A stretch of DNA of 58,788 bases from a virus (Duplodnaviria; Caudoviricetes), in IMG/VR virus record IMGVR_UViG_3300007094_000198, positions 1 to 58,788 of that record, one strand, 5' to 3'. The first letter of the stretch is position 1. Each line of letters opens with the position of its first letter. The position numbers and the translations under genes were made by a program. Below the pieces are notes generated by a model. It searched no databases. It was not told the origin of the DNA and was given only the letters and a program-made list of their open reading frames with translations. Shown one piece after another: positions 511-55,459 of the stretch.

Positions 511-572
511 GGGGTTATATGCGCTTTGCAGAATGGACGCCGCCTTGGCGAGCATGACGCGTTTGACTCTTA

Positions 573-1633: not shown

Positions 1634-1890
1634 CCGATCCGTCGATGATATTCCTCATATTTTTTTGATGAATAAATTTTGCCGCTCAAAAAATTCTTCG
1701 GTCTCTTTTGTGTTGTGCTGTGTTCGGATGACTGTGAAAGATAAGAGATTATCCATATTGTGCGGTTCAATGCCGGGATTATTCTGCTCGGCAGCCGCAG
1801 GACACAGGCCATCGTTGTCAAAAATGTTTCAGGTTACGGGCAGTGGATCGAGCTGGAGGTTGCTCTCTTCATAGGAATGGCGCCTTAGGA

Positions 1891-12511: not shown

Positions 12512-13246
12512 TCAAGAATTATAGTCAAATTTACTATAATGTGGCTCTCTATCCCATAAAACTCTCCACATAGCTCGTGTGTGTCCTGTAATCCCACCTA
12601 TATCGATGTTTTCTGGATATGTAAACGAGACCGGTTCGTCTATTACTTTTGGGGTTAAATTACAGTTTTTTATATGTAGGCCTAAAAGCGTTTCAGGGTG
12701 CCCGCAATTTAATGTTCGTATGTTTGAAAAGACGTCGGCATATAAATCTATTGCAGCTGATCGCCCTATTGCAAATCCGTCTCTTTCAGCTAAAGGATGT
12801 ACTCCCTTAATACCTACTTGGGCGGGTATTAAGATTGTATTGTTTTCTATATTAAATTCTTCAGAATGTATTTGTCTAACAAAAAAATTATCTAAACGAG
12901 AACGTATAACAATATCGTAAACAAATCCTTGCTCCTGTTCGTAGTCTTTTTTTAATTGATTGCACATCATAACATTATACCACATCGGTATAACAGTAGG
13001 AGTGTTAAATGTAATTTCTGGTATATTAAAAATGTCTTTTTTGTAAAAATTTATAGTGTTAACTACTTGTTTTTTAGGTTTATATAGTTCCCACAGGTCA
13101 TTTACGTTTTGCTCATAACCGTCCTTGTTTTCAACCCCGTAAATAAAAATATCTGAATTATATACATCTTGAAAGAGCGTTTTAAAGTACGGGTACGTAT
13201 CTTTATAATTCCTTATTCCACCAGAAAAACAAATAGCTATTTTCAT
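12512..13246 (-). CDS. Putative glycosyltransferase-like protein
   Basis: KIAICFSG..R, YDIVIRSRLD, D.FAIG, HPETLL pattern typical of surface-polysaccharide cluster proteins. Confidence 0.55.
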   Translation of the reverse strand: MKIAICFSGGIRNYKDTYPYFKTLFQDVYNSDIFIYGVENKDGYEQNVNDLWELYKPKKQVVNTINFYKKDIFNIPEITFNTPTVIPMWYNVMMCNQLKKDYEQEQGFVYDIVIRSRLDNFFVRQIHSEEFNIENNTILIPAQVGIKGVHPLAERDGFAIGRSAAIDLYADVFSNIRTLNCGHPETLLGLHIKNCNLTPKVIDEPVSFTYPENIDIGGITGHTRAMWRVLWDREPHYSKFDYNS

Positions 13247-13277
13247 AAAGATACTAAAACTACCCCTTAACTTATAC

Positions 13278-13913
13278 CTATAATTTATACGCTACTGCTA
13301 ACCCATAATCGTCTTCGTTTAAGAAATGCTTTTCCACTCTAAACATTTCAGGGTCAATACAATCAATAAACACTCTAGGCCCTGGGTGATAGTTGGTGTC
13401 GTGAAAGAACACTATACTTGACTCTGATAAGAGATCTGTGTATAACCAATCGTTAATACAAGCGTTCACAGAATGCCAACCATCTATAAAAAGTATAGAT
13501 ATTTTGTCTATCCCGATTTGTTTAATATAATTTCTAATAATATCTTGATTAAATGAATTTTCTTTTATTGTGTAAATATTATTTTGAGAATTATTTAAAT
13601 ATGTTTTATCTTCCAAATCTATTCCGAGATATTTAATATGGTTCGGTTTGTTTGACAACAATGCATTCGTAAAAGATCTATCACCGTTTCTCGAAACACC
13701 TATCTCTATGACACCGCTAGTCATGTAATTTTTACTAATTGTTTTTACAAGATTAAAGTTGTTTACTGATACCTCTAAACTACAAGATTTTGTAAACGAA
13801 GCCCAGTCAGCGTCATTATCGTATTTTACCATTTGTGGCTTATACTTTAAACCGTTAATATCTGTACCTAACTCTAATACTTCTACTACCGTGTTATTAA
13901 TTTCTATTTGCAT
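13278..13913 (-). CDS. Class I SAM-dependent methyltransferase (Methyltransf_24-like)
   Basis: IEIGV, GID, LFIDGWHS and FFHDT motifs. Confidence 0.75.
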   Translation of the reverse strand: MQIEINNTVVEVLELGTDINGLKYKPQMVKYDNDADWASFTKSCSLEVSVNNFNLVKTISKNYMTSGVIEIGVSRNGDRSFTNALLSNKPNHIKYLGIDLEDKTYLNNSQNNIYTIKENSFNQDIIRNYIKQIGIDKISILFIDGWHSVNACINDWLYTDLLSESSIVFFHDTNYHPGPRVFIDCIDPEMFRVEKHFLNEDDYGLAVAYKL

Positions 13914-13925
13914 TTTTTAAAAAAA

Positions 13926-15155
13926 TTAAAATATTCTATAAGCTAAATCTTTTGAGTGTTGTTTATAACCCCATTTTTCAATAGCCGCTTTATATTCAGG
14001 CTTGTTTATGTCTAAATCAATAGCCTGTCTCATAGCTGCTCCACCTGATCTCGTTCCATTCGGGTGACCGTGCAAAGCGCCACCTACATTAGCCATCCAG
14101 TCAAAGCTTTCAATCGCTTTATTAATGTATTGCACTAAGCCGGGGTGCATACCACAACTCAACGCAGGAATTATTCTATAATGCCATAACACTTTAAGAG
14201 AATCTAACAATTCTTGATCATCTTGATTCATATAACCGCCAATCATACCTGCGTGTATAGAATCACAACCTGACCACCCTGCTATTTTACAGAGTACTGG
14301 CCAGTAAATATGATATGGTGACCTTTTGTCAGTAAAAAATTTATCTCCACTTTTTTGAAAATGTATCCACAAACCTGGGTTTTGTTTTCTAATAGCTCTG
14401 TATACACCGAGACCGCTCCATACATTAATATGTATACCCGTACCACCTTCGCTTGCAATAAATTTTGCTCTCTCTAAAGCAAATGGGCTATCGCCATTTA
14501 TACAAAATGTGTAGATAACATCAGAAGCGTTATTCTTTAACCAGTTTGTTATTAAAGGCACTCTTTTCTTTAGCGAACAATGCTCTGGGTCTCCTAACAA
14601 CTCATCTTCTTTAATAAAATTAACTCCCCCGTAAACCATTTCTTTTACTGCATCCAATAAAACTTCAGGTGTCATACCTACTTTAGGTTTTACTATACCA
14701 CCTAAGAACGGTTTTTGAAAAACATTACAAAAATCCCGGAACCCTTCAATACCGTATGCTGGCTTTAATGTAAAAATGCTTTCTACTTCGGGTGGTAGAT
14801 GTATGTCTAAAACATGGCATTGCTCTAATTCAAGTATATCTACTTGCCCTCCTGCTATATAACATAATATTTGAGATATACCGTCTTCCTCTAAATTAAG
14901 GTTTTCTAACGGAAAAGCAATCTCAACAATACCTTCATTTTTATTTTTTAAAATCTCTTCTTCCTCTAAAACCCTACAAGTGTGATTTTCAAACATTGCT
15001 TCAGTCTCCCAGACACTACGATTATTAGGGTTTCCTATACTTTGACCTATAGCTAAATTCCAAGACGCGTCTCTTAAAGAGGTTTTACCCTTCAAAAAAT
15101 ATTTTACTATAAAATACTTGCTCTTATCAATTTCCTTAGTAAAGATTTTAGTCAT
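13926..15155 (-). CDS. RuBisCO-like protein (form IV, RLP)
   Basis: GGIVKPKVG, FIKEDE metal/carbamate motif, IHFQ, IHAG, LSCGMH, GGALHGHP. Several carboxylase residues are substituted. Start taken at ATG 15155. Confidence 0.9.
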   Translation of the reverse strand: MTKIFTKEIDKSKYFIVKYFLKGKTSLRDASWNLAIGQSIGNPNNRSVWETEAMFENHTCRVLEEEEILKNKNEGIVEIAFPLENLNLEEDGISQILCYIAGGQVDILELEQCHVLDIHLPPEVESIFTLKPAYGIEGFRDFCNVFQKPFLGGIVKPKVGMTPEVLLDAVKEMVYGGVNFIKEDELLGDPEHCSLKKRVPLITNWLKNNASDVIYTFCINGDSPFALERAKFIASEGGTGIHINVWSGLGVYRAIRKQNPGLWIHFQKSGDKFFTDKRSPYHIYWPVLCKIAGWSGCDSIHAGMIGGYMNQDDQELLDSLKVLWHYRIIPALSCGMHPGLVQYINKAIESFDWMANVGGALHGHPNGTRSGGAAMRQAIDLDINKPEYKAAIEKWGYKQHSKDLAYRIF

Positions 15156-15183
15156 AAAATAAAACTTATTTAAATAGTGCTTT

Positions 15184-15507
15184 TTAAGCAACAATAAATT
15201 TATCTTCTATACCTGAAACTGTCTTAACTATAATTAAAACACAATCTTCTAAAAACACTGGGTCCGCTATTTCATATGGATGTATAACAAAAACGTCTCC
15301 TCCGACAAGAATTTTGCCCTGTATAGACATCTGCCCAGTTATCAATAAATTTATTTCTGTACCGATTTTATGGTAGTGGGTTTCCCATTTCTCACCTTTA
15401 TAATGTTTTTTGTAACAAACTTCAAAATTATTAGTTTTATAAGCTGTTGGTTCAAACCCTCCAACAAACCAACCATCTTTAAATTCTTCGTATTTATACA
15501 CGTCCAT
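15184..15507 (-). CDS. Cupin-domain protein
   Basis: GWFVGGFEP, HYHK..TEIN, G.M, GDVF.I.P cupin pattern. Confidence 0.75.
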   Translation of the reverse strand: MDVYKYEEFKDGWFVGGFEPTAYKTNNFEVCYKKHYKGEKWETHYHKIGTEINLLITGQMSIQGKILVGGDVFVIHPYEIADPVFLEDCVLIIVKTVSGIEDKFIVA

Positions 15508-16231
15508 ATACGTTTTCTTCAAAAAACTTTAAATCCTCTGGTGTCCCGATCGGAAAATGTAAATTATAATAATAAGGTAGAATTTTTTTACCTTTTTGTA
15601 TCATATAATTATAGGTGGGAGCTACGTAAAACTCGTTACTGTACTTTTCATTTTGCGCGATCATTTCTTCAGCTGAGTTCACAAAGTCTGTCCCTTTAGC
15701 CCAAAAGTGAATACCGTTAGTAGCTATATTACTAATAACTATTTTTTCTTTAATAACCTCAATATCTAAATTATTTGTTAATTTTAAATAACTATTTTTT
15801 TTAGATGTTGAGTGAAACGTACCAACAACCCCGTCAGCTTTATTAAGCTCTGCAAATGTTAATAAGTTTTTTAAACTAAAATCAGCGATTATTTGATCGC
15901 AATTAAGAATCAGCAACGGGGTATTGTTGTTAATTTGCTCTTTAACAAGTAAACATGTACATGCCGGTCCTTCCGTTACTATATCTATTAAATGTATGTT
16001 ATATTTAATATTTAATTTTTTAAAAATATCTAAAAATGCTTGCTGAGTGCCTATGTGTGTAGATGTAACGACCGATAAATTAATTTGCTGTAAATCTCCA
16101 AGGTTTTTAATTACTTTCTCAATCATAGGTTCCCCACATACATCTATTAAGGGTTTAAGCTGATTAGGGTGACTCTGGTTGAACCTTGAACCAGTGCCTG
16201 CCATAGGTATTACAATGTTAATTTTACTCAC
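15494..16231 (-). CDS. Sugar-phosphate nucleotidyltransferase
   Basis: IVIPMAGTGSRF, KPLI, TEGPACT, NCDQ, EK, NEFYVAP, IGTPEDL. GTG start at 16231. Confidence 0.85.
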   Translation of the reverse strand: MSKINIVIPMAGTGSRFNQSHPNQLKPLIDVCGEPMIEKVIKNLGDLQQINLSVVTSTHIGTQQAFLDIFKKLNIKYNIHLIDIVTEGPACTCLLVKEQINNNTPLLILNCDQIIADFSLKNLLTFAELNKADGVVGTFHSTSKKNSYLKLTNNLDIEVIKEKIVISNIATNGIHFWAKGTDFVNSAEEMIAQNEKYSNEFYVAPTYNYMIQKGKKILPYYYNLHFPIGTPEDLKFFEENVYGRV

Positions 16232-16248
16232 AGTTATTTTTTTAAGTT

Positions 16249-16833
16249 TTATTCTTTTATTCTTATACACCAAGCATAATCAGCGAACGTTTCTTGTAAA
16301 AAAGGCTTTAAACCTGAAAAATCAGCATAACTATCTTCAAACTCTTTCCAGTTCCAAATTTTGTGTAAATATTTTTCATTAAAAATCTCATCATTCGGGG
16401 CGTAATCGTGAGCCATAATTACATCTCCATCTTTTAAGTATTTGTAAAATGTCTGAAACTCTTGTTTTTTGTTACCACCGTCGCACAGGAGTAGTGTGCG
16501 CCCTGAGCTTTGTATTAACTCTCCTAATGTTTTTTCTATTTGAAAGACGTTTTGATTCGTGAAATTTATTTTTTCGTTATGGGAAACAAAGCGAGTCGGG
16601 TTAATATCAAATGTGTGTATTTTAGCGTTTAAACTGATACTGTGATCCGCTAGTAAGTTTGTTAACCCACCGTAATCTGTGCCTATCTCTATTATTTTTT
16701 GAAACGGGGTATTAATACATTTTTCTGCTAAAATAGTAAATGCTTTTTCAACGCCATATTTTTGTAACGCTTTTTGACCTTTATATGTAAAAACATCTAC
16801 CCCAATATCGTAATATAATTTTTCAACATTCAT
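16249..16833 (-). CDS. SAM-dependent methyltransferase (CmcI-like)
   Basis: IIEIGTDYGG, LCDGGNK, MAHDY; paralog of 51568-52221. Confidence 0.7.
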   Translation of the reverse strand: MNVEKLYYDIGVDVFTYKGQKALQKYGVEKAFTILAEKCINTPFQKIIEIGTDYGGLTNLLADHSISLNAKIHTFDINPTRFVSHNEKINFTNQNVFQIEKTLGELIQSSGRTLLLCDGGNKKQEFQTFYKYLKDGDVIMAHDYAPNDEIFNEKYLHKIWNWKEFEDSYADFSGLKPFLQETFADYAWCIRIKE

Positions 16834-16893
16834 ATTGTATATATATTAACAAATAAACATAAAGAAAGCAACCTAATAACGTCTGTATTTTGG

Positions 16894-17595
16894 CTATTCA
16901 AATATATGAAAACAACTACCGTAATTACCTGTTTGCGATCCTTGATAAATTTTTGGTTCTGTTGCCCAATAAACTGTAAAGTTATTTAACATTTGTAAGT
17001 AATTAAGTTCCCAGTCAATAACCGTAAAGAACGGTAAAGCAGTGTTTAATATTTGATTTACAGCAGAGCGTTTAATTATATAAGAATCACTACAGCGGCT
17101 GTGTTTTTGATGATTTTCGACTAAAGGCTCTCCTTTTGTATAAGATATTGAGAGCTGGCACCCTGAACCTAAATAGCATATGTCGCAGTTATCTGGTATA
17201 CAGTTCTCGTAAAAATTAATTATATCTTGCAAAGGTTCCTTAAACATAGCATCATCCTCTAAAATTAAAGACCAATTATCCGTTGTATTAAAAATTATAT
17301 GTTCAAACGTTTTATAATGTTCTAATGTTACAGCTCTGTACGCTTTACCTTTTATGGTTGTATTATCTGGGCCAATACTCACTCGCTTTTCAAACGGTAG
17401 CATTATTAAATTACGCTTATCTCGATTTTGAGAGCTAATATCAAAATAGCGTTCGTCTAATATTTCTAAGGAGTCTCTGTCGTACAAAGAGCGATACAAA
17501 AAAGGAACAGAGACTGATTGTAATTGTTCATCTAAATATTTTTTACGATCTATATTTTTATTATAATGTATAATGTATATACTATCTACTTTCAT
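16894..17595 (-). CDS. Glycosyltransferase family 25-like
   Basis: YIIHY....DRK, LEH, LILEDD, YLG, SYII and IDW motifs. Confidence 0.75.
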   Translation of the reverse strand: MKVDSIYIIHYNKNIDRKKYLDEQLQSVSVPFLYRSLYDRDSLEILDERYFDISSQNRDKRNLIMLPFEKRVSIGPDNTTIKGKAYRAVTLEHYKTFEHIIFNTTDNWSLILEDDAMFKEPLQDIINFYENCIPDNCDICYLGSGCQLSISYTKGEPLVENHQKHSRCSDSYIIKRSAVNQILNTALPFFTVIDWELNYLQMLNNFTVYWATEPKIYQGSQTGNYGSCFHIFE

Positions 17596-18215
17596 GTTTT
17601 TTTAAAAAAAAGACCTCTATGCTCGAAATGATTGCCGTCAAAGTCTGGGCAAAAAATTAAACGATCTGCTTTAGCGAACTGTTTTAATTGTTTTGTGTAC
17701 ATACTATCGTAAATAAAACCTCTCTTTTCAATCTCTTCTATCCAATAATGTGCAGGCTGACAATTAACATGATGATGGCCTCCTTGCCCTGGTCCAGCGT
17801 GCGTAAGCACTATATATTTACCTTTATCGAAGCATTTTAAAAAGTTTTCTTTGTACTGTTCTTCAATGTGTTCTACAACCTCTACACAATAAACAAGATC
17901 AAAATCGTTCTGAATTACTGGGGACCCTGCGGTAAAGTCCCAGTGTATTACGTTTTCTTTTAATAGCGAATGCTCTACAGCTACAGGGCAACCTTCGATA
18001 CCTGTAACATTAACGTTCATGTTTTTAAAATGTTGCATTGTGAAACCTCGTCCACAGCCAACATCAAGCATATTTTGTATTTTTAAATTCTTTATTAAAA
18101 ACGACCACATCGTGGGATAAGTAGTCGCTATATCTCCTTCAAAAAAATATCCTCCTAAATGACTTAACCCCCCTTCATGTCTTATCATTCCTGTTGTTGA
18201 ATTGTTTATTTTCAT
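17592..18215 (-). CDS. Class I SAM-dependent methyltransferase
   Basis: LDVGCGRG, FDLVYCVEVVEHI, PGQGGHHHVN. Confidence 0.85.
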   Translation of the reverse strand: MKINNSTTGMIRHEGGLSHLGGYFFEGDIATTYPTMWSFLIKNLKIQNMLDVGCGRGFTMQHFKNMNVNVTGIEGCPVAVEHSLLKENVIHWDFTAGSPVIQNDFDLVYCVEVVEHIEEQYKENFLKCFDKGKYIVLTHAGPGQGGHHHVNCQPAHYWIEEIEKRGFIYDSMYTKQLKQFAKADRLIFCPDFDGNHFEHRGLFFKKT

Positions 18216-18221
18216 ATGTTA

Positions 18222-19025
18222 TTAATAGCGTTTTGAATAAGCTTCCCACTCCTCACAAAGCCATTTTTGACCGCCGGCAAAATGTCGATTTATAACTTGG
18301 TCTTTAGTAGTGTGAACTATGTCATACGTGTTACGGTTTCCAAAACTATTACCCGTTTCTTCTAAGAGATGAGTCGTATTCCATTCAGGTCCTAACACTT
18401 CTATATTTTTCATAAGCTCATCTATAGAGAATAATGTAAATTCGGTTTTGTTTGTATGAAAACCGTAATCAGGTAAATCTAAGAATGAAACCCAACTATG
18501 TGGTTTAATACCAGCTATATGATAATATGCATGTTGGTCATTAGCATAAAAAACAACTTCTTGTTTTACGTCTTCCTTGTAATATTTTTTTTGCATGAAA
18601 TAATTAAAACGTTCCTGAGAGACCATTGCGTTAATAATTTTTTTCGTAAACTCATTTACCTGTAAGGAAAATATACCCATACAATGAGTGTTGCCAGAGT
18701 CAATAGCGTATGTAAAGCTCTTTTTAGTGGTAATGTCATAATTAAGTTTTGCGATATATACATCACAATCAAACATTGTTACTATATCTCCTTCCTGAAG
18801 TTTACCTTCATCGATAGCATCTTTAAGTATCTTCCACCTGTAAAACATTACACTGCCTTCTGGGGAAACATTTTCAAACACCTTAACATTTGTTGAATAC
18901 GGTAATTCTACGTACTTATAACCATGTAGTTTACAGTATTGTATGTTTCTTGGGCGCATATAAGTCGTATATGCTCCCAGCCTCCAGTCGGTGTAATTCG
19001 GGAGGGTAAGGAATATTTTTTTCAT
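18222..19025 (-). CDS. GT-A glycosyltransferase (GT34-like)
   Basis: YCKLHGY, DCD (DxD), DQ, WN and RHFAG motifs. Confidence 0.65.
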   Translation of the reverse strand: MKKIFLTLPNYTDWRLGAYTTYMRPRNIQYCKLHGYKYVELPYSTNVKVFENVSPEGSVMFYRWKILKDAIDEGKLQEGDIVTMFDCDVYIAKLNYDITTKKSFTYAIDSGNTHCMGIFSLQVNEFTKKIINAMVSQERFNYFMQKKYYKEDVKQEVVFYANDQHAYYHIAGIKPHSWVSFLDLPDYGFHTNKTEFTLFSIDELMKNIEVLGPEWNTTHLLEETGNSFGNRNTYDIVHTTKDQVINRHFAGGQKWLCEEWEAYSKRY

Positions 19026-19039
19026 AACGAATTTTTTAT

Positions 19040-19867
19040 CTATCTAAAAGAGTTTATTTTATTGCACCAATATGTTATATTGAGTCTTTCAGTGTTTACG
19101 AATGCTTGTCCGTTTTTATATAAATTTTTAAAATAACTCATTTTTTCTTGTAGTTCCATTTCATCGTTCCAGTCTTTAACAAAAAGCACAGGTAAACCTT
19201 TCGTTATTTCTCTAAGAGAAAAACTCTCTTCAACAATCGGTATAGAACCTAAATACAACGTCTCCCATGTTCTATGGCAATCTAAACCGTTCCCGCGAGG
19301 CGACGCTATAAATAAAAATTCTTTAACCTTCTCGCAATAAGCTTTATACTCTCTTCCTACGTCTAAAAAACAAATGTCGTTTTGCTGGAGTTTTTCTAAA
19401 ACATTTCTCCGATTTGAATGTGTTCTCAGGTTAAAATTACAATATATTTTATTTATAATCTTGTTTGAAACCGGTTCAGGTGCTACATTATTAAAGAGCC
19501 AATTAAAATCAGTATACGCGCCTCTATATGGTCCTGAATTACTCTCTAGCCCAATAGGTATACAATGTAAATCTGGGTGCTCATATGTAACATTTTGGGC
19601 AAACCATTTAATAATATTACTCGGTTTTTTGTCGAAAAAGATTTTATTTATTTCATAATCACTGCAATGCGTAATTAATATAAATTTACTCTCTGGTACT
19701 GAACTGCATTGGTTAAACACTAAATCTAAAAAATCCGGTCTACACCAAACAACCTTAGTTGTGTTTGAAGGTAATATACGATCCTGTCTATCTGGACCGA
19801 TAATGTAATCAGCTATTCGCTGGTACTGAGTACCAGCTATAAACTCATTCGCAAAATCCTTAATCAT
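19040..19867 (-). CDS. Exostosin/GT47-like glycosyltransferase
   Basis: SPRGNGLDCHRTWETLYLGSIPIV motif. Confidence 0.75.
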   Translation of the reverse strand: MIKDFANEFIAGTQYQRIADYIIGPDRQDRILPSNTTKVVWCRPDFLDLVFNQCSSVPESKFILITHCSDYEINKIFFDKKPSNIIKWFAQNVTYEHPDLHCIPIGLESNSGPYRGAYTDFNWLFNNVAPEPVSNKIINKIYCNFNLRTHSNRRNVLEKLQQNDICFLDVGREYKAYCEKVKEFLFIASPRGNGLDCHRTWETLYLGSIPIVEESFSLREITKGLPVLFVKDWNDEMELQEKMSYFKNLYKNGQAFVNTERLNITYWCNKINSFR

Positions 19868-20535
19868 TTTTCTCCTATAAATAAGTACGCGCCACTATTA
19901 TATTGAGGGTATCTACTCTCTGCTCTCGAAAGTACTTTTTTAAAAATTGTTTTATATTTATTACTTATAAAGCTATCGATTTCCTTTTCATCGAGCATTA
20001 TAGGGTGCATTTTATCATTTTTTACAACGTCGTTATTTTTATCTAAATCGTCTTTCAAATCTTGCCCTAAAATAAATACTCCACCTGGCCGTAAAAGAGA
20101 TTCAATTTTCTCGAAACACCGCTTTACCGAGTATACATGATCCAAAACATTAATCATAATTATACAATCTACAGGTTCACATTCTAATTCTTCAAGAGGT
20201 TTGGTGAAGCCTAAAACTTTTTTTTCCCTCATAAAACGTCCTACGCTCTTATTAAGATCAATGTAATCTTTAAGCAGAGGATCATTTACAAACATTTTCG
20301 GGGTGTAACCTAAAGCTTTAATTAAGAGCTGTATGTTTTTTGCCCATGGTCCACACCCAACTTCTAAAACAGATTCGAATTTGCGGTTCGAAACATCTTG
20401 AAAATTATTTAACTTCTCACACCACCAGTTATTCCAATCATCTCCATCCGCTTCTGCGTAAACCCAATTTCTTAATTCTAAAGGTTGAGCTTCTTCTGCC
20501 CATTGTTTTTTTGTAATTTCGTTGTATGTGTTCAT
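19864..20535 (-). CDS. Class I SAM-dependent methyltransferase (type 11-like)
   Basis: LEVGCGP, NVLDHV, LRPGG. Confidence 0.85.
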   Translation of the reverse strand: MNTYNEITKKQWAEEAQPLELRNWVYAEADGDDWNNWWCEKLNNFQDVSNRKFESVLEVGCGPWAKNIQLLIKALGYTPKMFVNDPLLKDYIDLNKSVGRFMREKKVLGFTKPLEELECEPVDCIIMINVLDHVYSVKRCFEKIESLLRPGGVFILGQDLKDDLDKNNDVVKNDKMHPIMLDEKEIDSFISNKYKTIFKKVLSRAESRYPQYNSGAYLFIGEK

Positions 20536-20576
20536 TTTTTTAATTATAAAAAACTTCTCTTTAAAGCCACTCTATA

Positions 20577-21497
20577 TTAACTATCACATCTTTCTAAGAT
20601 TTCTTTAATCACTCTCTTATTATGTACATGTAAATTGAATATGGGTACCGCTTTATTGTTATACATGATATACGGAGCTTTATTCATATTAACTGAAATT
20701 TGTTTGTTTATTATAGCTCTACCAACATAATGCTTAAAATCTGTAAAACCTGGTGCTTCGCCACTGTTTGTACCACCTATATATTGCCCGTATGATGTAG
20801 GATCAAATACACACTGAAGCTCTTCAAAGTTCTCCGAACTAATACCGAACGGTAAACTCGGTAACATTTTATAGTTTTTTTTATATCTGTAAATTATATC
20901 TAACAAAGGCATATCTGTTATATAATTACAGAAATACCCTACATAAGGCGCGAGTTTATGTTCTCCTTTTTCGTATAATTGAATATGCTTTTGTAATAAA
21001 TTATCTGCTGCAACTTCATCTTTTAAAAAAATAAAAGAAGGAGCTGAAGAAAAAGGACCTTCATTACAAAAGCCATACTCGCCGTTAGAAAAAATTTTAT
21101 TTAATATTGAAACATTGTTTGCAAAAATAATGTTATCAGCTTCCACGTGGGTTACGTTTTTGAGATAGTGCTTTTTAATATATATACAAAGAAGAATAAC
21201 TCTAATAGATGTATTATACCAAAAAGGGTTTTTTTTATATCTTGACCATTTTTCGTTAATAACTTGATCTAAATATTTAAAATCTTTATCTTCTAATAAA
21301 TCTTGTATATCTTTATTTTCGTTCGTAATAAAATGAGAGTTTTTAAATTTTGCTTTATTAAAGTTATACGTTAACGTGTAAAACTCCGGTAAAGTGGTGT
21401 GCGCGTACCATGTATCTTCTCTGTTCTTACTATCTGTAAAGCTAGAGTTTAAAAAAACATAAACAAGGTTATTAATATTGTTATTATCTTCTTCCAT
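20577..21497 (-). CDS. Putative glycosyltransferase-like protein
   Basis: HVEAD, DM, FDPTSYGQYIGG, NLHVH pattern; glycan-island context. Confidence 0.5.
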   Translation of the reverse strand: MEEDNNNINNLVYVFLNSSFTDSKNREDTWYAHTTLPEFYTLTYNFNKAKFKNSHFITNENKDIQDLLEDKDFKYLDQVINEKWSRYKKNPFWYNTSIRVILLCIYIKKHYLKNVTHVEADNIIFANNVSILNKIFSNGEYGFCNEGPFSSAPSFIFLKDEVAADNLLQKHIQLYEKGEHKLAPYVGYFCNYITDMPLLDIIYRYKKNYKMLPSLPFGISSENFEELQCVFDPTSYGQYIGGTNSGEAPGFTDFKHYVGRAIINKQISVNMNKAPYIMYNNKAVPIFNLHVHNKRVIKEILERCDS

Positions 21498-22233
21498 ATA
21501 TTGTACCTCTGTGATGTAGGAACACTCTCTGATATGTACAACTTACCGGTCTTAGCCCGTCCCCTGCTTCTGAGGGTTCCGGGTAAAGCCTTACGTCGTA
21601 TTGTTGCGCAAGCATTGAAACCACAGATTGATCGTGTCTGTTATCTACTTTTTGAGGAAAATCCTTACCTAATACTGAAGGCTCGTCAGTGACAATCCTA
21701 CGGTCAGTGCAAAACTGAAAATACTCTGTTACAAACTTCACTGTTTCTGGGTTTTTTTGATATAGTTGAAAAGCTGCATCAACTTGGCTACCGTAATGAT
21801 ATTCCTTAGTATCACAATCCATTAAAATAAAAGCGTCCCTCTTTGTCCACATGTAGTTTTGCCATATTTGCCCTTGCGGGTGACCTGAACGGTTTTCAAA
21901 AAGAAGAAACCCTCTATTTTTTACACATAATTCAAATAACGGCTCAATATCTCCAACTATATCCGTACCACTGTCTATATAAAAAACAAAGTCTCCCTCA
22001 TCTACGTTCTCTAACGTTTTTAAAATAATATACGGTTTCCAAAACCAAAAACCTACACCTCTTCTGTATTGCGAAATTTCAGGGTATTGCTTGAATAGCT
22101 GTATAATTGAAGAGGTATTTTCATCAAAATTAGCGCAACCATTAAATACTTTTTTAGACTGCTGTGTAAGTCTGTCTTGACTCATTTTTAATGCGTAACT
22201 GTACCCTGCAAACGTTGTTAAAATTTTTTTCAT
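21484..22233 (-). CDS. Putative GT-A glycosyltransferase
   Basis: GFWFWKPYII, YIDSG and RHDQS motifs. Confidence 0.6.
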   Translation of the reverse strand: MKKILTTFAGYSYALKMSQDRLTQQSKKVFNGCANFDENTSSIIQLFKQYPEISQYRRGVGFWFWKPYIILKTLENVDEGDFVFYIDSGTDIVGDIEPLFELCVKNRGFLLFENRSGHPQGQIWQNYMWTKRDAFILMDCDTKEYHYGSQVDAAFQLYQKNPETVKFVTEYFQFCTDRRIVTDEPSVLGKDFPQKVDNRHDQSVVSMLAQQYDVRLYPEPSEAGDGLRPVSCTYQRVFLHHRGTIYGRR

Positions 22234-23024
22234 AGTGTAAAATATTTTTTTTCTAAATCTACTTCATTATCAAATGGAACGTACCAAAGAATGTTATTAT
22301 GAGTTGCTCGTTTTAAAAGTACGTTTTGTACGTATCCAAACCATCTCGCACCTAAATGATCGCTATCTGTAACAAAGACTTGTTCATTATAACTATTACC
22401 TGAAGATTGCTCCATTGATTCGCTCTTGTGATCGAGATGAAAAACCGGTAAGGGTGGTTTATTTAAAACCATACAATCTCCGTATAGCATACATTTAGTA
22501 AAAAAATATGTATCCCAGTACGCACACCCTAAAACCATTTTTTTAAATTTTTTTCTATTCGCGGTCCACCATTGTTTCTTAACCCCAAACCCCTCAAACC
22601 CGTGTACGCTAACAGACTGTGGTATAGGTGCTGGGTCATTAATAGAATCTAGTTTTGTAAAATGCAGTTTTGAAGCGGGAAAACAATCTTTATTGGGGTT
22701 ACTCTGTATAGATTTAACAAAACGATCAGAAACTGCTAAATCATTATTTATAAAAATAAAATAATCATCGCTATTTTCTGATAAAATATCAAAAAATTGA
22801 TTAACAAACGGTAGCTGTCTCCCGTCACTATTAAAGTATTCTAACACTTTTTTTATATTTTTGAACCCCTCTATTTCGTGTTCTTTTTCGTCAATAATAT
22901 TACAAATTTCAACAGTATCCGTAAACTTGCTTTTTATTTTCAATAACGATTGATAGCACATTATCTCCCGGTTATTAAAATCTTTTAGCTTCTTAAACGT
23001 GTTTATACCTATAGTAATTTTCAT
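22230..23024 (-). CDS. Putative GT-A glycosyltransferase
   Basis: LPFV, FIFINND, G...WD, HLDH. The ATG at 23024 overlaps the upstream stop (ATGA). Confidence 0.55.
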   Translation of the reverse strand: MKITIGINTFKKLKDFNNREIMCYQSLLKIKSKFTDTVEICNIIDEKEHEIEGFKNIKKVLEYFNSDGRQLPFVNQFFDILSENSDDYFIFINNDLAVSDRFVKSIQSNPNKDCFPASKLHFTKLDSINDPAPIPQSVSVHGFEGFGVKKQWWTANRKKFKKMVLGCAYWDTYFFTKCMLYGDCMVLNKPPLPVFHLDHKSESMEQSSGNSYNEQVFVTDSDHLGARWFGYVQNVLLKRATHNNILWYVPFDNEVDLEKKYFTL

Positions 23025-23794
23025 TGTTTTAATTTTTGTATCTTTTGCAAAACTCGCTCTCTTGAAGTATCCGGTATTTGATTGACCATCAACCCATGCT
23101 TTTGAACAAACATTTCCCACTGTTCTCGGATACGTTGCTCTCTGTTTCCGTCTGGTCTATCGCCTTGCAATCTACTAACAGCTACAGGGTTGTTTTTGAT
23201 ATATAAATCGGAGTCCGTAATATCTGCAAACCACCAAAATGGGGCTGCATACTCTTCTTGAGACTCTCTATACGCCATATCAATATCAAAAGGATCTCGA
23301 AACTGTGTATCGTACAAACCTACTTTTTCAAAGCAAGAACTGTGATGGTAAGTAAACTCATTACACATGTTTTTGTAAAAAGATACACTAATATCTTTAC
23401 TATACTGTACAACTAACCTTGGTGTTCTACTCCTTGGTGCTCCTGAATCCCAGGATGTACTCACAAAAGAAAAATATTTTAACCCTGTTTTTTTAGACGT
23501 CTCAATATATTTACTAAAAATATTTGAATCTTTAATGATCATGTCATCTTCAATTATAAAAATATGCTCGCAGTCGTTTTTTATAAGAGATTTAATTGCG
23601 TCATTCCTACACACTGCTGGGTACTTGTTTATTTTATGCTGTATCCATTCACTACAAACATACTTGTCCTGGTACACATCACCACCATTAACTACAACAA
23701 AGTGATTAATTTTATTTTGATCTATACTTTTATACAGTTCTTTAAAGTAATTTTCTGAATTATAAGTAACTATACCTACGCCTATTTTTTCCAT
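23021..23794 (-). CDS. GT2-family glycosyltransferase
   Basis: GIVTYN, RN, IIEDD, VGLYD; paralog of 23782-24579. Confidence 0.8.
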   Translation of the reverse strand: MEKIGVGIVTYNSENYFKELYKSIDQNKINHFVVVNGGDVYQDKYVCSEWIQHKINKYPAVCRNDAIKSLIKNDCEHIFIIEDDMIIKDSNIFSKYIETSKKTGLKYFSFVSTSWDSGAPRSRTPRLVVQYSKDISVSFYKNMCNEFTYHHSSCFEKVGLYDTQFRDPFDIDMAYRESQEEYAAPFWWFADITDSDLYIKNNPVAVSRLQGDRPDGNREQRIREQWEMFVQKHGLMVNQIPDTSRERVLQKIQKLKQ

Positions 23795-24579
23795 AATTTC
23801 TTAATTTTTTTTAATGATTGTATAGTTTCTTCTTTACTAGCGACTTTAGCTTGTGGGTCTCTTACATCAAAATTATTTTGTTTAGCGAAATAATCAGCCA
23901 TTTTATAAAAATTATGAACCCAGTTCTGGTCTTTTCTAATTGTAGATCCTGCGTGATTGGAATCTTGTTCTGAAATATATTTTGAACTATCAGCAATGTC
24001 CGCAAACCACCTAAAAGGTGGGTGCATTTGGTTTTGAATAATTTTGTAAGTGTGGTCTACATGTTCCAAAGCATTATAATAATACTCATCCATATAACCA
24101 CATTCTTCAATACATTTACGAGTGTAAAAAGATAACGCCCCGTAAACATTAGGGTAAAGACAAACTGTGCAATCCTTTGAGTATTCAACCTGTAAATTAA
24201 TAGCAGGGGTTCTGTCTGCTCTATAATTGTCAGTTCCGTGAAACGCAAAATTAAAATGCTGAATACCTGATAATTTAGATGCTTCAATATATCTTTGAAA
24301 CACACTTAAGTCTTTTATGACTATATCATCTTCTAAAAGAAAAAAATAATCATAACCTTCTGACATAAACTGCTTTAAAGCTATATTTTTAGCTTTTCCG
24401 ACTCCGCTCCTCGGTGTTTCAGTCGTTAAACCGTAACCACACTCTATGCTTTCAGATATATCTTGATTACCGTCATTCACAATAAAAATGTCTTCTGTTA
24501 CGTTTTTAACAGAGTCTAAAAGCTGTCGCACGTAATCAAGTCTATCACAAGTAATAATACCAACACCAAAAGCACCCAT
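23782..24579 (-). CDS. GT2-family glycosyltransferase
   Basis: GIITCDR, VNDG, GVGKAKN, LLEDD, GYMDE, EHVD. Confidence 0.85.
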   Translation of the reverse strand: MGAFGVGIITCDRLDYVRQLLDSVKNVTEDIFIVNDGNQDISESIECGYGLTTETPRSGVGKAKNIALKQFMSEGYDYFFLLEDDIVIKDLSVFQRYIEASKLSGIQHFNFAFHGTDNYRADRTPAINLQVEYSKDCTVCLYPNVYGALSFYTRKCIEECGYMDEYYYNALEHVDHTYKIIQNQMHPPFRWFADIADSSKYISEQDSNHAGSTIRKDQNWVHNFYKMADYFAKQNNFDVRDPQAKVASKEETIQSLKKIKKLWKK

Positions 24580-24580
24580 A

Positions 24581-25198
24581 TTACTTTTCTTTATTGCTCT
24601 TAATATACTCTTTAAGAGACGCTTTTAATTCTTCTATTTCTTGGTATTTTTTATTTTGTGGGAAATCCCCATGCTTATAATTAAACCACCCACACGATAA
24701 TTCCTCCATAATGTTTTTACTCACTTTTTTCTCCTCTGTTGCTACATCAAACAACCACGGTAGATGTTTTGTGCTTAGATTAGGGTATTTTTTAGCGCTA
24801 CTGAGCCTATGAACATAATCCCCATAACAGCAATTATCTGTTAATCTTTCATCAAAATACCCCACTGTTTGTATAGCTTCTCTTGTAATAAACAAAGTAA
24901 TTATTTTTTGCTCAAGTATACTACCTGCAAGGAGCGCTACCCCACTACCGCAATCGATTGTTTGCTGAGCCTGTAGCCTGCCAGCAAAAAAAGGTAGCTT
25001 TATTTTCTGATGAGCTTTCACGCAAAGCTCCATATAACTTTGAACCTGTTCTTCAGTAAGAACAGGTAGTTCTGTTTTTGTAAAATATATTAACGCGCAA
25101 TCTTCTGAACTATTATGAATAAAATCTCTTAAAATTTTATTAACTTTTGTGCCTATTAATTCTATTTGCTCTTCTAATTTGTATAATTTTGTAGTCAT
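24581..25198 (-). CDS. Degenerate GT2-like protein
   Basis: FITREAIQTVGYFDERL..D...R matches the C-terminal GT2 motif of its neighbours; N-terminal DxD region absent. Confidence 0.45.
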   Translation of the reverse strand: MTTKLYKLEEQIELIGTKVNKILRDFIHNSSEDCALIYFTKTELPVLTEEQVQSYMELCVKAHQKIKLPFFAGRLQAQQTIDCGSGVALLAGSILEQKIITLFITREAIQTVGYFDERLTDNCCYGDYVHRLSSAKKYPNLSTKHLPWLFDVATEEKKVSKNIMEELSCGWFNYKHGDFPQNKKYQEIEELKASLKEYIKSNKEK

Positions 25199-54085: not shown

Positions 54086-55459
54086 TTATTTAATCTCAGT
54101 GCTCAGGTAAATGTTTAAATCTTCCGGGGTACCTATACCCCACATTTTTTCAACCTCAAACACTCTTATCTGTTTACTGTCTTCTATAGCCTGGTTAAAC
54201 ACAGGGCAAACATAATACTCGTTATTAACTTTAATGTTCTTCTCTATCATACTCTCTGCATATTTGACGTAATCTGATCCATGCTTCCAAAAGTAAATAC
54301 CGGCAGTAGCGATATTTGATATCGGGTTTTTTTCAGCTACCTCTACAACTAACCCGTCTTCATTAACTTTAGCAAACGACCATTTGGGGTGCGTTGAAAT
54401 GAACGTAACGATTCCGCCGTCACACTCAGTCTCATTCATCTTATACATAAATTCATTTGAATTCCATTCCACTATTTGATCAGAGTTAGCTATTACAAGC
54501 GGGTTTTCGTTATTGATAAACTCTCTCGCCAGTAATGTCGTACATGCTGCCCCGCTAGTGATACCGTCAGTCTCTACAATCTCGCAATCAGGCGCTATTA
54601 ACCCTAACAAAGATTTTAAATTATATTTTTTATTATGTTCTCTTTGTACTATAAACACAAACTTTGCATCCATATTAAGATTATCAACCACGGTTTGTAT
54701 CATCGGTTTACCGTTAACGTCAATGAGTGGTTTTGGAAACGTGTAACCAGCTCTCTCAAACCTACTTCCCGCCCCCGCCATCGGTATAAGCACTGTTAAC
54801 TTTTTATCAGACCATTTCGGTGTTTTACTCAAGTTATTCATGTTTAAACAATTTATTCTTCTTTCTAATAAATTAAAGGTTATTTCTTTCGGGGTACTAA
54901 CTCTTAATATATTAGCGTGACTACGACTTGCAGCCTGTAGCCCGTGTGGAGAATCTTCTACTACAAGCACCTCCTCCGGTAAAACCTTAAAATAAGAAAT
55001 CGCGCTCCAATATATTTCTGGATGCGGTTTGCTGTTTATTACGTCTTCGTTTGATAAAATTAAATCAAAGTATTCAATAATATCTAACCTATGTAACGCT
55101 GTTAGCACTGTTTTCTTAATACTGTTACTACAACAACCAATTTTAATACCTTGTTCAGCTAACCGCTCCACACATTCTTTTATATTTGAAGCCACAGTTA
55201 GGGTCTGAAGGGCTTTTTGCGTTAATTTTTGCTTATGCTCCCAAACTTGTTTAAAAGATGCTCGCGACAAACCTCTTCTTACGTGTAACAGCTCCAATTT
55301 TTCGTTTGTTTTAAGCCCATCGAATACTTCTAAATGTTCGGCCCAGTTAATTACATACTCTTCCCCTTCTAATTTTAGTGCAGAGTTGAGACTATCAAAA
55401 TGTATTCTTTTAGCCTCTATAAGCACGCCATCTAGATCAAATAAAACAACCTTTATCAT
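54086..55459 (-). CDS. HAD phosphatase fused to sugar-phosphate nucleotidyltransferase
   Basis: FDLDGVL, SN, KPHP, VEDS; then IPMAGAGSRF, PKPLI, NSDQ, AEK, GTPEDL. Confidence 0.9.
   Translation of the reverse strand: MIKVVLFDLDGVLIEAKRIHFDSLNSALKLEGEEYVINWAEHLEVFDGLKTNEKLELLHVRRGLSRASFKQVWEHKQKLTQKALQTLTVASNIKECVERLAEQGIKIGCCSNSIKKTVLTALHRLDIIEYFDLILSNEDVINSKPHPEIYWSAISYFKVLPEEVLVVEDSPHGLQAASRSHANILRVSTPKEITFNLLERRINCLNMNNLSKTPKWSDKKLTVLIPMAGAGSRFERAGYTFPKPLIDVNGKPMIQTVVDNLNMDAKFVFIVQREHNKKYNLKSLLGLIAPDCEIVETDGITSGAACTTLLAREFINNENPLVIANSDQIVEWNSNEFMYKMNETECDGGIVTFISTHPKWSFAKVNEDGLVVEVAEKNPISNIATAGIYFWKHGSDYVKYAESMIEKNIKVNNEYYVCPVFNQAIEDSKQIRVFEVEKMWGIGTPEDLNIYLSTEIK

What the first reader, a model, noticed from the sequence alone, without database searches (positions are those of the whole stretch)
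13926..16231. Phage-encoded RuBisCO-like protein in a nucleotidyltransferase-cupin-RLP module: candidate new nucleotide-sugar pathway
Seen: a ~409-aa RuBisCO large-chain fold keeps KPK, the KEDE metal motif, the H294/H327 equivalents and the GMH/GG phosphate loops. By eye it replaces the E60 (GQS), N123 (Q), R295 (F) and loop-6 K334 (GGYM) equivalents. It follows a nucleotidyltransferase and a cupin and is surrounded by glycosyl- and methyltransferases. Established: such substitutions mark form IV RLPs, which do enolisation-type chemistry on sugar phosphates (methionine salvage, branched-sugar catabolism), not CO2 fixation. No methionine-salvage genes are in the window. Inference: this RLP works biosynthetically, rearranging a sugar phosphate (possibly to a branched sugar or sugar acid) that the NTase activates and the GTs transfer. 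That would be a new RLP function in a virus.
Basis: partly seen in the sequence, partly recalled or inferred. Interest (0 to 1): 0.9.

Follow-up and report, generated by a model that had tools for sequence, protein, structure and literature searches.

The report
Phage RuBisCO-like enzyme in sugar-activation cassette
A large T4-like phage carries a RuBisCO relative that cannot fix CO2 and that, in well over a hundred related phage and metagenome stretches and in one bacterial-type contig, sits next to, and is sometimes fused with, enzymes that activate sugars, pointing to an undescribed biosynthetic role for this enzyme family.

Summary
The gene is real: a 409-aa RuBisCO-like protein (RLP, 13926-15155, minus strand) under strong purifying selection. 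It lies in a methyl-/glycosyltransferase island that splits gp46 from gp47 of an uncultured T4-like phage.

It keeps the enolisation and metal residues: K175, K177, K201, D203, E204, H327, S379 and G381. It lacks the carboxylation set: E60>G, N123>G, H294>Q and K334>Y, each the same in 31-32 of 32 clade members.

It belongs to a separate clade (SH-aLRT 99), apart from MtnW, form I/III and the acid-sugar RLPs. This is probably the phage 'IV-like' clade that Jaffe et al. 2018/19 reported without a function.

New here is a conserved cassette: nucleotidyltransferase, small metal cupin, RLP and a 149-aa GDPD-like protein. Of 77 non-redundant loci, 70 have the NTase, 56 the cupin and 60 the GDPD-like gene within three ORFs of the RLP. 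There are NTase-cupin, RLP-NTase and GDPD-like-glycosyltransferase fusions. The same four genes stand together on a 72% GC, Azospirillum-like contig.

The biosynthetic sugar-activation reading is well supported by genomics. The substrate and chemistry remain inferred.

The parts
13926..15155 (-). RuBisCO-like protein (RLP), 409 aa, member of the phage-dominated 'IV-like' clade. Enolisation and metal residues are kept; carboxylation residues are lost.
15184..15507 (-). Small single-domain cupin, 107 aa, with a G-x5-H-x-H-x4-E-x6-G metal motif. phrog_24762.
   Evidence: No Pfam or NCBIfam hit at E<=0.01.
15494..16231 (-). Nucleotidyltransferase, 245 aa from GTG 16231, of the sugar-phosphate NTase type. 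phrog_3980. Nearest solved structure is 4evw.
13278..13913 (-). Probable methyltransferase directly downstream of the RLP. It holds the same position (+1) in 20 related IMG/VR loci.
   Evidence: Methyltransf_24 and CmcI, both below their cut-offs
12512..13246 (-). DUF7796 protein with a GT-A glycosyltransferase-like fold. In locus L062 it is fused to the GDPD-like protein.
   Evidence: 36 bits against cut-off 27; pLDDT 78.8; GT6 4ayj, E 1.3e-7
16249..16833 (-). Probable methyltransferase upstream of the NTase.
   Evidence: Methyltransf_24, 24.4 bits, below cut-off 26.3
55456..55905 (-). 149-aa GDPD-like (PLC-like barrel) protein, here called U149. phrog_34507. It is the usual fourth cassette member, placed in this window beside the second NTase.
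54086..55459 (-). Fusion of a HAD domain (beta-phosphoglucomutase-like) and an NTase, 457 aa.
55907..57181 (-). Glycosyltransferase of the PF11397 'GlcNAc' family, next to U149.
   Evidence: 6.1e-71
12512..25198 (-). About 12.7 kb same-strand island of methyltransferases, glycosyltransferases and the RLP cassette, inserted between gp46-like SbcC (10679-12481) and gp47-like SbcD (25195-26247).

Best explanation
The ORF encodes a functional, non-carboxylating RuBisCO-like enzyme. It works as part of a conserved cassette made of an NTase, a cupin, the RLP and a GDPD-like protein.

Most likely mechanism (inferred):
1. The RLP uses its retained carbamyl-Lys/Mg site (K201, D203, E204) and K175 to enolise a phosphorylated keto-sugar drawn from central metabolism, such as a pentulose, hexulose or heptulose phosphate. 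It reprotonates the enediolate to give an isomer or epimer.
2. The product is brought to the 1-phosphate form. Where a beta-PGM-like HAD is present, fused to an NTase, that domain may do this.
3. The NTase converts the 1-phosphate to an NDP-sugar.
4. The metal cupin isomerises or epimerises the sugar just before or just after nucleotidylation.
5. The neighbouring O-methyltransferases and GT-A-type transferases then build a modified glycan on a phage or host target.
6. The GDPD-like protein handles a phosphodiester at the transfer step or at the substrate-supply step.

Shown here: the fold, the residue pattern, clade separation, purifying selection, conserved linkage, gene fusions, and a bacterial copy of the cassette.
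Inferred: the substrate, the reaction type, the order of steps and the glycan target.
For: RLP residue pattern:
- Every enolisation and metal residue is kept in 32 of 32 clade members.
- E60, H294 and K334 are replaced by the same residues (G, Q, Y) in 32 of 32, and N123 by G in 31 of 32.
- dN/dS is 0.04-0.08.

Clade:
- It forms its own clade: SH-like support 99 among 120 rows and SH-aLRT 99 among 63 rows with LG+C20.

Linkage:
- Of 74 IMG/VR loci (window included) with at least 3 ORFs on each side, the NTase lies within 3 ORFs in 68, the cupin in 66, U149 in 55, and all three in 46.
- Among 944 ORFs more than 6 genes away there were 3 NTase, 0 cupin and 3 U149 hits.
- Of 32 metagenome loci: NTase 31, U149 25, cupin 16.
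- Non-redundant at 90% identity, 77 clusters: NTase 70, U149 60, cupin 56, all three 40.

Fusions:
- NTase-cupin in 21 ORFs and HAD-NTase in 12 ORFs.
- RLP-NTase in P0122 (Pfam domains at 145-416 and 435-616). Its 90% cluster has 128 members, and 12 of the 15 listed are 667-671 aa.
- U149-DUF7796 in L062.

DUF7796 has a GT-A fold.

Bacterial copy:
- L095 has GC 0.70-0.72 and an RLP 96% identical to a protein that a source names as Azospirillum.
- It carries U149-RLP-cupin-NTase, followed by a TPR-FkbM methyltransferase and CysN/APS kinase.

Other neighbours in phage loci include NAD-epimerase/dehydratase, UDP-GlcNAc 2-epimerase, and FkbM and TylF methyltransferases.

Cultured cyanophages without an RLP carry the NTase, cupin and U149 inside nucleotide-sugar and glycosyltransferase clusters.
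Against: - There is no biochemical evidence of any kind.
- No substrate can be read from the sequence.
- The P2 phosphate site is altered (R295>K, H298>D), so RuBP itself is doubtful.
- A whole sub-lineage has NTase-RLP-NTase and no cupin (L099-L109, L170).
- At least two loci (L136, L167) show the RLP with none of the partners within 5 ORFs.
- In this window U149 is 40 kb from the RLP.
- The GDPD-like role is unexplained. Its family assignment rests on an N-terminal 50-residue profile match (E 1.3e-4) and weak Foldseek hits (best E 6e-3, TM 0.3-0.5).
- Many loci are related phages, so counts are not fully independent even after 90% clustering.
- No RNA run holding the stretch was listed, so expression was not examined.
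Confidence: 0.55

Rival explanations
1. Same cassette, different chemistry. The NTase acts like IspD, TarI or LicC on a terminal phosphate of an acyclic RLP product (a polyol, ketol or acid phosphate). This would make a CDP-X donor whose phospho-X group is transferred teichoic-acid style. The GDPD-like enzyme would then trim or edit the resulting phosphodiester.
For: - Weak N-terminal matches of both NTases to IspD, KdsB and LicC-type models.
- A constant phosphodiesterase-like partner with an intact H-R / E-N / E-x-D / H-D residue set.
- In S-SKS1 the same NTase family is annotated as fused to a DHBP-synthase domain. From recalled knowledge, that enzyme makes a 4-carbon ketol phosphate.
Against: - The best full-length matches of the NTase are sugar-1-phosphate enzymes (4evw at 2.7e-27; RmlA, GlmU and GMPP at about 1e-8).
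- The HAD fused to the sister NTase is closest to beta-phosphoglucomutase, which fits a route through a 1-phosphate.
- The associated DUF7796 looks like a GT-A sugar transferase, not a phosphotransferase.
Confidence: 0.2
2. A catabolic or salvage auxiliary metabolic module. RLP plus cupin (plus HAD) would act like the methionine-salvage trio MtnW, MtnX and MtnD, or like the Rhodospirillum RLP + cupin MTA-isoprenoid shunt (recalled). The effect would be to redirect host sulfur or pentose metabolism, not to build glycans.
For: - The RLP beside a small cupin mirrors the mtnW operon on a Priestia plasmid, where an RLP, a HAD phosphatase, a dehydratase and a cupin are adjacent.
- All RLP functions that I recall as characterised are catabolic or salvage.
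Against: - MtnW model scores 91.6 bits against a cut-off of 513.6.
- The Lys that replaces N123 in MtnW is Gly here.
- Phage cupin against the operon's cupin: hhalign probability 33%.
- Phage HAD against MtnX: no similarity, E 0.32.
- No mtnK/A/B-type genes were seen among the window ORFs scanned.
- This reading does not explain the NTase fusions or the transferase and methyltransferase context in both phage and bacterium.
Confidence: 0.1
3. A non-catalytic or decaying RLP: a structural, regulatory or vestigial protein.
For: It has lost four canonical RuBisCO catalytic residues.
Against: - The replacements are themselves the same in 31-32 of 32 members.
- The metal and enolisation residues are all kept.
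- dN/dS is 0.04-0.08.
- One search found 2287 proteins at E<=0.001 (this count also includes distant RuBisCO-family members); the 120 best listed are 74-100% identical to the query.
Confidence: 0.03
4. A true CO2-fixing RuBisCO acting as a photosynthesis-type auxiliary gene.
For: Only the fold, and best raw scores to form III models.
Against: - K334, E60, N123 and H294 are all absent.
- rubisco_III scores 152 bits against a cut-off of 497.
- It sits outside the form I/III side of the tree.
Confidence: 0.01

Closest known systems
Phage 'form IV-like' RLP clade of Jaffe, Castelle, Dupont & Banfield (bioRxiv 10.1101/386292; Mol Biol Evol 2019, PMC6389311)
   Same: RLPs on IMG/VR and metagenomic Myoviridae-type contigs. 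They are highly divergent from other RLPs, lack several catalytic residues, have a few bacterial relatives, and have no known function (passages read).
   Different: I could not compare their sequences directly, so identity of the clades is inferred. Their main text contains none of the words nucleotidyl, glycosyl, cupin, neighbor or synten. The cassette, the fusions and the Azospirillum-type copy appear to be additions. Their supplementary figure S1a (a phage genome map) could not be opened.
MtnW/YkrW 2,3-diketo-5-methylthiopentyl-1-phosphate enolase (methionine salvage RLP)
   Same: Same fold. K175, K201, D203, E204 and S379 are kept. Non-carboxylating enolisation chemistry. A cupin and a HAD stand nearby in the operon.
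   Different: 91.6 bits against cut-off 513.6. A separate clade. The N123 position is K in MtnW and G here. H294 is kept in MtnW and is Q here. K177 and H327 are lost in MtnW and kept here. The partners differ.
RLPs of acid-sugar and apiose catabolism (OiaX type; RLPs next to DUF1537 four-carbon acid-sugar kinases)
   Same: RuBisCO superfamily enzymes acting on small phosphorylated keto-acids or sugars.
   Different: OiaX scores 110 bits against cut-off 700. The kinase-linked RLPs keep E60, N123, H294, R295 and K334. They form another clade and sit with kinases and transporters, not NTases.
Bifunctional type II phosphomannose isomerase / GDP-mannose pyrophosphorylase (ManC/AlgA/XanB architecture; recalled)
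   Same: Domain order of N-terminal NTase then C-terminal metal cupin, as in the 21 NTase-cupin fusion ORFs. The cupin profile weakly matches a small mannose-6-phosphate isomerase chain (7zvm, E 7e-4).
   Different: The phage cupin is only about 107 aa and has no Pfam hit. The NTase is nearest to 4evw, not to GMPP. An RLP and a GDPD-like partner are added.
Glycerophosphodiester phosphodiesterases (GDPD, PLC-like TIM barrel), compared with the U149 partner
   Same: N-terminal HRG...EN...ExD...HD residue pattern. Profile match to 7e0v at 1.3e-4. The top Foldseek hits are GDPDs. One depositor names a cyanophage homologue as GDPD.
   Different: 149 aa against about 220-250 aa. No Pfam hit at E<=0.05. 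TM-scores of only 0.3-0.5. Substrate unknown.

Membership tests
RuBisCO large-subunit superfamily | N-terminal domain plus C-terminal barrel domain above the Pfam gathering scores | tested here: met
   PF00016 scores 109.2 against 30.1; PF02788 scores 28.4 against 20.7. 98 PDB relatives.
Bona fide RuBisCO (forms I-III) | Full catalytic set including E60, N123, H294 and K334 (numbering recalled) | tested here: not met
   E60>G, N123>G, H294>Q, K334>Y. rubisco_III scores 152.3 against 497.45.
Bona fide RuBisCO / RLP common core | Carbamylatable K201, metal ligands D203 and E204, and K175 | tested here: met
   All kept in 32 of 32 clade members.
MtnW (DK-MTP-1-P enolase) equivalog | NCBIfam TIGR03332 / NF007095 cut-off, and methionine-salvage neighbours | tested here: not met
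   91.6 against 513.6 and 113.5 against 409. Separate clade. No mtn genes found in the scanned ORFs.
OiaX / acid-sugar RLPs | NCBIfam NF042437 cut-off, and a DUF1537 kinase neighbour | tested here: not met
   110.3 against 700. Separate clade.
Phage 'IV-like' RLP clade (Jaffe et al.) | Groups with their phage and Beckwithbacteria sequences as an outgroup to other RLPs | not testable with these tools
The description matches, and my clade is likewise apart from all other rows.
NTP_transferase (sugar-phosphate nucleotidyltransferase), for the NTase | Pfam PF00483 gathering score and the G-x-G-x-R...K-P signature loop | tested here: met
   32.4 against 21.2. Invariant G, G, R, K and P in A4. 4evw at 2.7e-27.
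Cupin superfamily, for the 107-aa protein | Two-His-one-Glu motif 1 in a beta-barrel | tested here: inconclusive
   The motif is visible and H43, H45 and E50 are invariant. PDB profile hits to cupins at about 1e-4. No Pfam or NCBIfam hit at E<=0.01. Its structure was not modelled.
GDPD (PF03009), for U149 | Full PLC-like TIM barrel with catalytic His pair and metal ligands | tested here: inconclusive
   No Pfam hit. N-terminal 50-residue profile match at 1.3e-4. Confident model with pLDDT 96.4, but Foldseek best E is 6e-3 and TM is 0.3-0.5.
GT-A glycosyltransferases, for DUF7796 | GT-A Rossmann-like fold with an acidic motif | tested here: inconclusive
   Foldseek gives GT6 and glycogenin at E 1e-7 to 1e-5 with TM about 0.5, on a model with pLDDT 78.8. 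D110 and D118 are invariant. No activity data.

The most novel reading that the evidence does not exclude
The RuBisCO superfamily has an anabolic branch. In this reading the clade's RLP commits a Calvin-cycle or pentose-phosphate ketose phosphate (Ru5P, Xu5P, RuBP or S7P type) to a previously undescribed nucleotide-activated, O-methylated sugar. A four-enzyme cassette (RLP, NTase, cupin, mini-GDPD) does this. Large aquatic T4-like phages, and a few bacteria such as an Azospirillum, would use the product to decorate virion or cell-surface glycans. Phages would then be the main reservoir of this RLP function.
Probability: 0.35. Interest if true: 0.85.

Novelty: new variant of a known kind. Interest (0 to 1): 0.7.

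Why it matters
Every RLP function that I recall as characterised is catabolic or salvage: methionine salvage, the MTA-isoprenoid shunt, and apiose or acid-sugar breakdown. The phage 'IV-like' clade was left without a function when it was reported.

A conserved, partly fused cassette with a nucleotidyltransferase gives this clade its first concrete and testable functional hypothesis. It would extend RuBisCO-family chemistry to glycan precursor synthesis.

The hypothesis also points to an unknown sugar on abundant freshwater and marine phages, which bears on host recognition and on defence evasion. The bacterial copy of the cassette offers a culturable system in which to test it.

Tried and rejected
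Cultured phages. tblastn of the RLP against 50,697 phage records found nothing. Megablast of 20 kb of the window found nothing. PHROGs has no RLP family.

Species-representative genomes. The scan used two exact peptide patterns and found one relative among 49 pattern matches. That relative is a 64-kb MAG contig (L089). The scan cannot see distant relatives.

Plasmids. tblastn with the Azospirillum-type RLP found only homologues at 31% identity or less. I used five of them as named references.

Methionine-salvage reading. It was tested and found to have no specific support.

HAD-NTase-cupin triple fusion. I first read some 443-471-aa ORFs this way. Domain-level checking found only NTase-cupin and HAD-NTase orders, so I withdrew that reading.

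HAD as a core partner. Rejected: 1 of 77 non-redundant loci by BLAST with the window's HAD domain, which is an insensitive test.

RLP as a simple replacement for phosphoheptose isomerase. Rejected: GmhA-like ORFs occur in 11-14 RLP loci.

ESM Atlas. It gave only unnamed viral clusters for U149 and the cupin. The nearest named ones were GDPD (0.86) and Cupin_2 (0.96), which are leads only.

tRNA and Rfam scans of the window found nothing.

Sequencing runs. 20 DNA holders were listed from 9 studies, labelled riverine, freshwater or wastewater. No RNA holder was listed.

Literature.
- 'rubisco-like' + 'nucleotidyltransferase' + 'cupin': 0 papers.
- 'rubisco-like protein' + 'nucleotide sugar': 4 papers, none relevant by title or abstract start.
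- 'rubisco-like protein' + 'phage': 24 papers.
- A four-term search from 2019 on: 46 papers; I read passages of two of them and found nothing on function.

Tools and files not available.
- The look-up of encoding contigs was announced as closed, and I did not call it.
Fig. S1a of Jaffe et al. may show a gene map that bears on the novelty of the cassette.

Subsets and dropped rows.
- A1 used 21 of the 120 listed homologues plus 2 locus ORFs.
- A2 used 26 of 55 distinct U149 sequences, A3 23 of 44, A4 23 of 47, and A6 17 of 19.
- The tree used only representatives of 330-760 aa, so shorter fragments were dropped. The tree used 63 of those 120 rows.
- The neighbourhood counts dropped loci with fewer than 3 ORFs on either side: 74 of 81 IMG/VR loci and 32 of 80 metagenome loci were kept.
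- L042 gave no RLP ORF and was left out of the counts. L095, L096 and L168 also gave none under the overlap-filtered ORF caller; their RLPs were recovered with unfiltered frames.


Full report
WHAT IS THERE

The window is a whole IMG/VR virus record of 58,788 bases. CheckV estimates it as 28% complete.

It encodes T4-type replication and recombination genes:
- UvsX-like recombinase
- gp43-type DNA polymerase (6843-9395)
- SbcC/gp46-like protein (10679-12481)
- SbcD/gp47-like protein (25195-26247)
- a helicase
- NrdA and NrdB
- an RNase H-like 5'-3' exonuclease

The polymerase is only about 31% identical to that of any deposited phage. The best matches are Pelagibacter phage HTVC008M and cyanomyoviruses. 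The host is therefore unknown. Public runs that hold the stretch are labelled riverine, freshwater or wastewater DNA.

Between the gp46-like and gp47-like genes lies a same-strand island of about 12.7 kb. It holds methyltransferases, glycosyltransferases and the three genes of the finding.

THE RLP

The ORF at 13926-15194 (-) has an ATG form of 409 aa (13926-15155). That form is identical to a database protein, and the homologues have the same length.

Family matches:
- Pfam RuBisCO_large at 3e-31 and RuBisCO_large_N at 2.1e-6, both above their cut-offs.
- 98 distinct PDB sequences match; the best is the Pyrococcus form III enzyme 2cwx at 8.3e-35.
- No NCBIfam equivalog cut-off is approached: rubisco_III 152 against 497, mtnW 92 against 514, OiaX 110 against 700.

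Catalytic residues were read from the HMMER alignment to 2cwx and from an alignment with an annotated form I enzyme. The spinach numbering is recalled.
- Kept: K175, K177, K201, D203, E204, H327, S379, G381, G403.
- Replaced: E60>G, T65>N, W66>P, N123>G, H294>Q, R295>K, H298>D, K334>Y, G380>C.

Across 32 members of the clade, both the kept residues and the main substitutions are constant. G60, Q294 and Y334 occur in 32 of 32, and G123 in 31 of 32. The lost residues are those that, from recalled RuBisCO enzymology, serve CO2 addition and hydration or cleavage. The kept ones serve metal binding and enolisation. dN/dS to three relatives is 0.04-0.08, with saturated dS; for two further relatives dS could not be estimated.

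CLADE

A search of 1.84 billion cluster representatives found 921 relatives at E<=1e-3 and 50 at E<=1e-30.

Two trees agree. A FastTree of 120 rows and an IQ-TREE of 63 rows under LG+C20 both put the window protein, all sampled phage RLPs and the 36-53%-identical representatives on one side of a branch with support 99. On the other side are:
- a named mtnW
- a named form I large subunit
- IF-2B-fused form III-like proteins
- three named RLPs that sit beside four-carbon acid-sugar kinases

The clade also holds a protein that a source names as Azospirillum (P0286) and one from an Actinomycetota MAG (P0134).

This matches the description of the phage 'IV-like' RLPs by Jaffe et al. They reported about 80-90 non-redundant sequences, some on Myoviridae contigs, with unclear function (passages read). 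I could not compare their sequences directly.

The GOS paper had already noted RuBisCO homologues that cluster with no known form (passages read). Whether those include this clade was not tested.

THE CASSETTE

I collected 80 IMG/VR loci, out of 141 that encode a relative. I also collected 80 metagenome loci, out of at least 513. Neighbours were scored with HMMs built from family alignments.

Loci with at least 3 ORFs on each side of the RLP:
- IMG/VR plus window, 74 loci: NTase within 3 ORFs in 68, cupin in 66, the 149-aa protein U149 in 55, all three in 46.
- Background, 944 ORFs more than 6 genes away: 3 NTase, 0 cupin, 3 U149 hits.
- Metagenome, 32 loci: NTase 31, U149 25, cupin 16.
- Non-redundant at 90% RLP identity, 77 clusters: NTase 70, U149 60, cupin 56, all three 40.

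The usual gene order is NTase, cupin, RLP, an optional methyltransferase, then U149.

Gene fusions tie the parts together:
- NTase-cupin, 21 ORFs, in that domain order.
- HAD-NTase, 12 ORFs.
- RLP-NTase in P0122. Its 90% cluster has 128 members, and 12 of the 15 listed are 667-671 aa.
- U149-DUF7796 in L062.

Exceptions:
- One sub-lineage has NTase-RLP-NTase without a cupin.
- Two loci show no partner at all within 5 ORFs.

THE PARTNERS

NTase. It is a sugar-phosphate nucleotidyltransferase by Pfam and belongs to phrog_3980. Its nearest solved structure is the uncharacterised 4evw (2.7e-27), followed by GMPP, RmlA and GlmU at about 1e-8.

Cupin. It has the H-x-H-x4-E metal motif, invariant across 23 sequences. 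It gives only generic cupin matches, including a small mannose-6-phosphate isomerase at 7e-4.

U149.
- In this window it is at 55456-55905, beside a beta-phosphoglucomutase-like HAD-NTase fusion and a PF11397 glycosyltransferase.
- It has invariant H5, R6, E17, N18, E34, D36, H49 and D50.
- Its N-terminal 50 residues match GDPD by profile at 1.3e-4.
- Its AF2 model is very confident, with pLDDT 96.4.
- The top Foldseek hits are GDPDs, but they are weak: best E 6e-3, TM 0.3-0.5.

DUF7796. This protein (12512-13246) models as a GT-A glycosyltransferase-like fold. The best hit is the GT6 enzyme 4ayj at 1.3e-7.

Other recurrent neighbours are FkbM, TylF and CmcI-type methyltransferases, NAD-epimerase/dehydratases and UDP-GlcNAc 2-epimerases.

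OUTSIDE UNCULTURED PHAGES

Cultured Synechococcus myoviruses carry homologues of three parts, always inside nucleotide-sugar and glycosyltransferase clusters and without an RLP:
- U149, in 17 records
- the HAD-NTase fusion
- the cupin, in Bellamy and SynMITS9220M01

The RLP thus looks like an add-on to a pre-existing phage sugar-activation toolkit.

A 72% GC contig, L095, has an RLP 96% identical to the Azospirillum-named protein. It carries U149-RLP-cupin-NTase in a row, followed by a TPR-FkbM methyltransferase and a CysN/APS-kinase fusion. The context is therefore glycan-modifying in a bacterium as well.

HOW IT MOST LIKELY WORKS

The following steps are inferred:
1. The RLP enolises a phosphorylated keto-sugar at its carbamate/Mg site and reprotonates it to an isomer or epimer.
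2. A mutase-type HAD, where present, and the NTase convert the product to an NDP-sugar.
3. The cupin, in the same NTase-cupin order as the recalled bifunctional PMI/GMP enzymes, isomerises or epimerises just before or just after nucleotidylation.
4. Methyltransferases and GT-A-type transferases use the product.
5. The GDPD-like enzyme acts on a phosphodiester at the supply or the transfer step.

Rival readings:
- A CDP-polyol or ketol head-group variant of the same cassette.
- A salvage or catabolic module. This was tested, and no specific similarity to MtnW, MtnX or MtnD was found.
- A non-catalytic protein. The conservation pattern contradicts this.
- A true carboxylase. The residue pattern contradicts this.

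NOVELTY

The existence of phage RLPs is published. I found no paper that links them to nucleotidyltransferases, cupins or nucleotide sugars (searches; main text of PMC6389311). Supplements could not be read.

I rate this a new variant of a known kind: a known enzyme superfamily and a known clade, with a newly evidenced and apparently anabolic functional context.

LIMITS

- There are no biochemical data.
- Loci are phylogenetically related, so counts are not fully independent.
- ORFs in the loci were called by a simple script.

Noticed in passing
window 4045-6825 (-): A bimodular QueF-like protein (PF14819 + PF14489; TIGR03138 at 244.6 bits, below the 293.45 cut-off). PHROGs labels it 'GTP cyclohydrolase'. 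An AAA_28 protein and a formyltransferase-like protein follow it. This may be 7-deazaguanine-related chemistry in the phage.
   Followed up: partly
window 10679-12481 and 25195-26247 (-): The SbcC/gp46-like and SbcD/gp47-like genes are separated by the roughly 12.7 kb transferase and RLP island. From memory, they are adjacent in T4. The spot behaves as a hyperplastic insertion site.
   Followed up: partly
P0222; P0154 and P0160 (representative proteins): Other RuBisCO-family fusions in the database. P0222 is a TIR-domain + RLP protein of 583 aa. P0154 and P0160 are IF-2B-family + RuBisCO proteins of 726 and 742 aa.
   Followed up: no
window 1-2000: GC is 0.454 against 0.30-0.38 in the rest of the window. 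The region holds an AraC-type HTH_18 ORF (573-1094) and an unannotated open-ended ORF. It may be a foreign or host-derived segment at the contig end.
   Followed up: no
L006 6001-7428 (Synechococcus phage S-SKS1); L014, L015, L017, L025, L026 and L039, about 5 kb upstream of the RLP: In S-SKS1 the same NTase family is annotated as fused to a 3,4-dihydroxy-2-butanone-4-phosphate synthase domain. Free-standing homologues of that domain, 211 aa and 52-54% identical, occur in six RLP loci of one lineage.
   Followed up: partly
L005 8054-9628 (Synechococcus phage Bellamy gp093): This 524-aa 'hypothetical protein' is a tandem of two NTase domains. Both halves hit the phage NTases in more than 100 loci.
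   Followed up: partly
window 49211-51571 (-): A 786-aa protein that combines a TylF-type O-methyltransferase with an HtrL/YibB domain. It heads a second transferase island at 49-58 kb.
   Followed up: no
L099-L109 and L170; L136 and L167: One RLP sub-lineage (RLPs of 418-421 aa) is flanked by two NTase genes and has no cupin. Two groundwater-type loci have an RLP of this clade with none of the cassette partners within 5 ORFs.
   Followed up: no
L089 (genome contigs): The only hit among the species-representative genomes is a 64-kb contig binned into a Saprospirales MAG, with an RLP 75% identical to the window's. It may be a phage contig binned with a possible host. I did not examine it.
   Followed up: no
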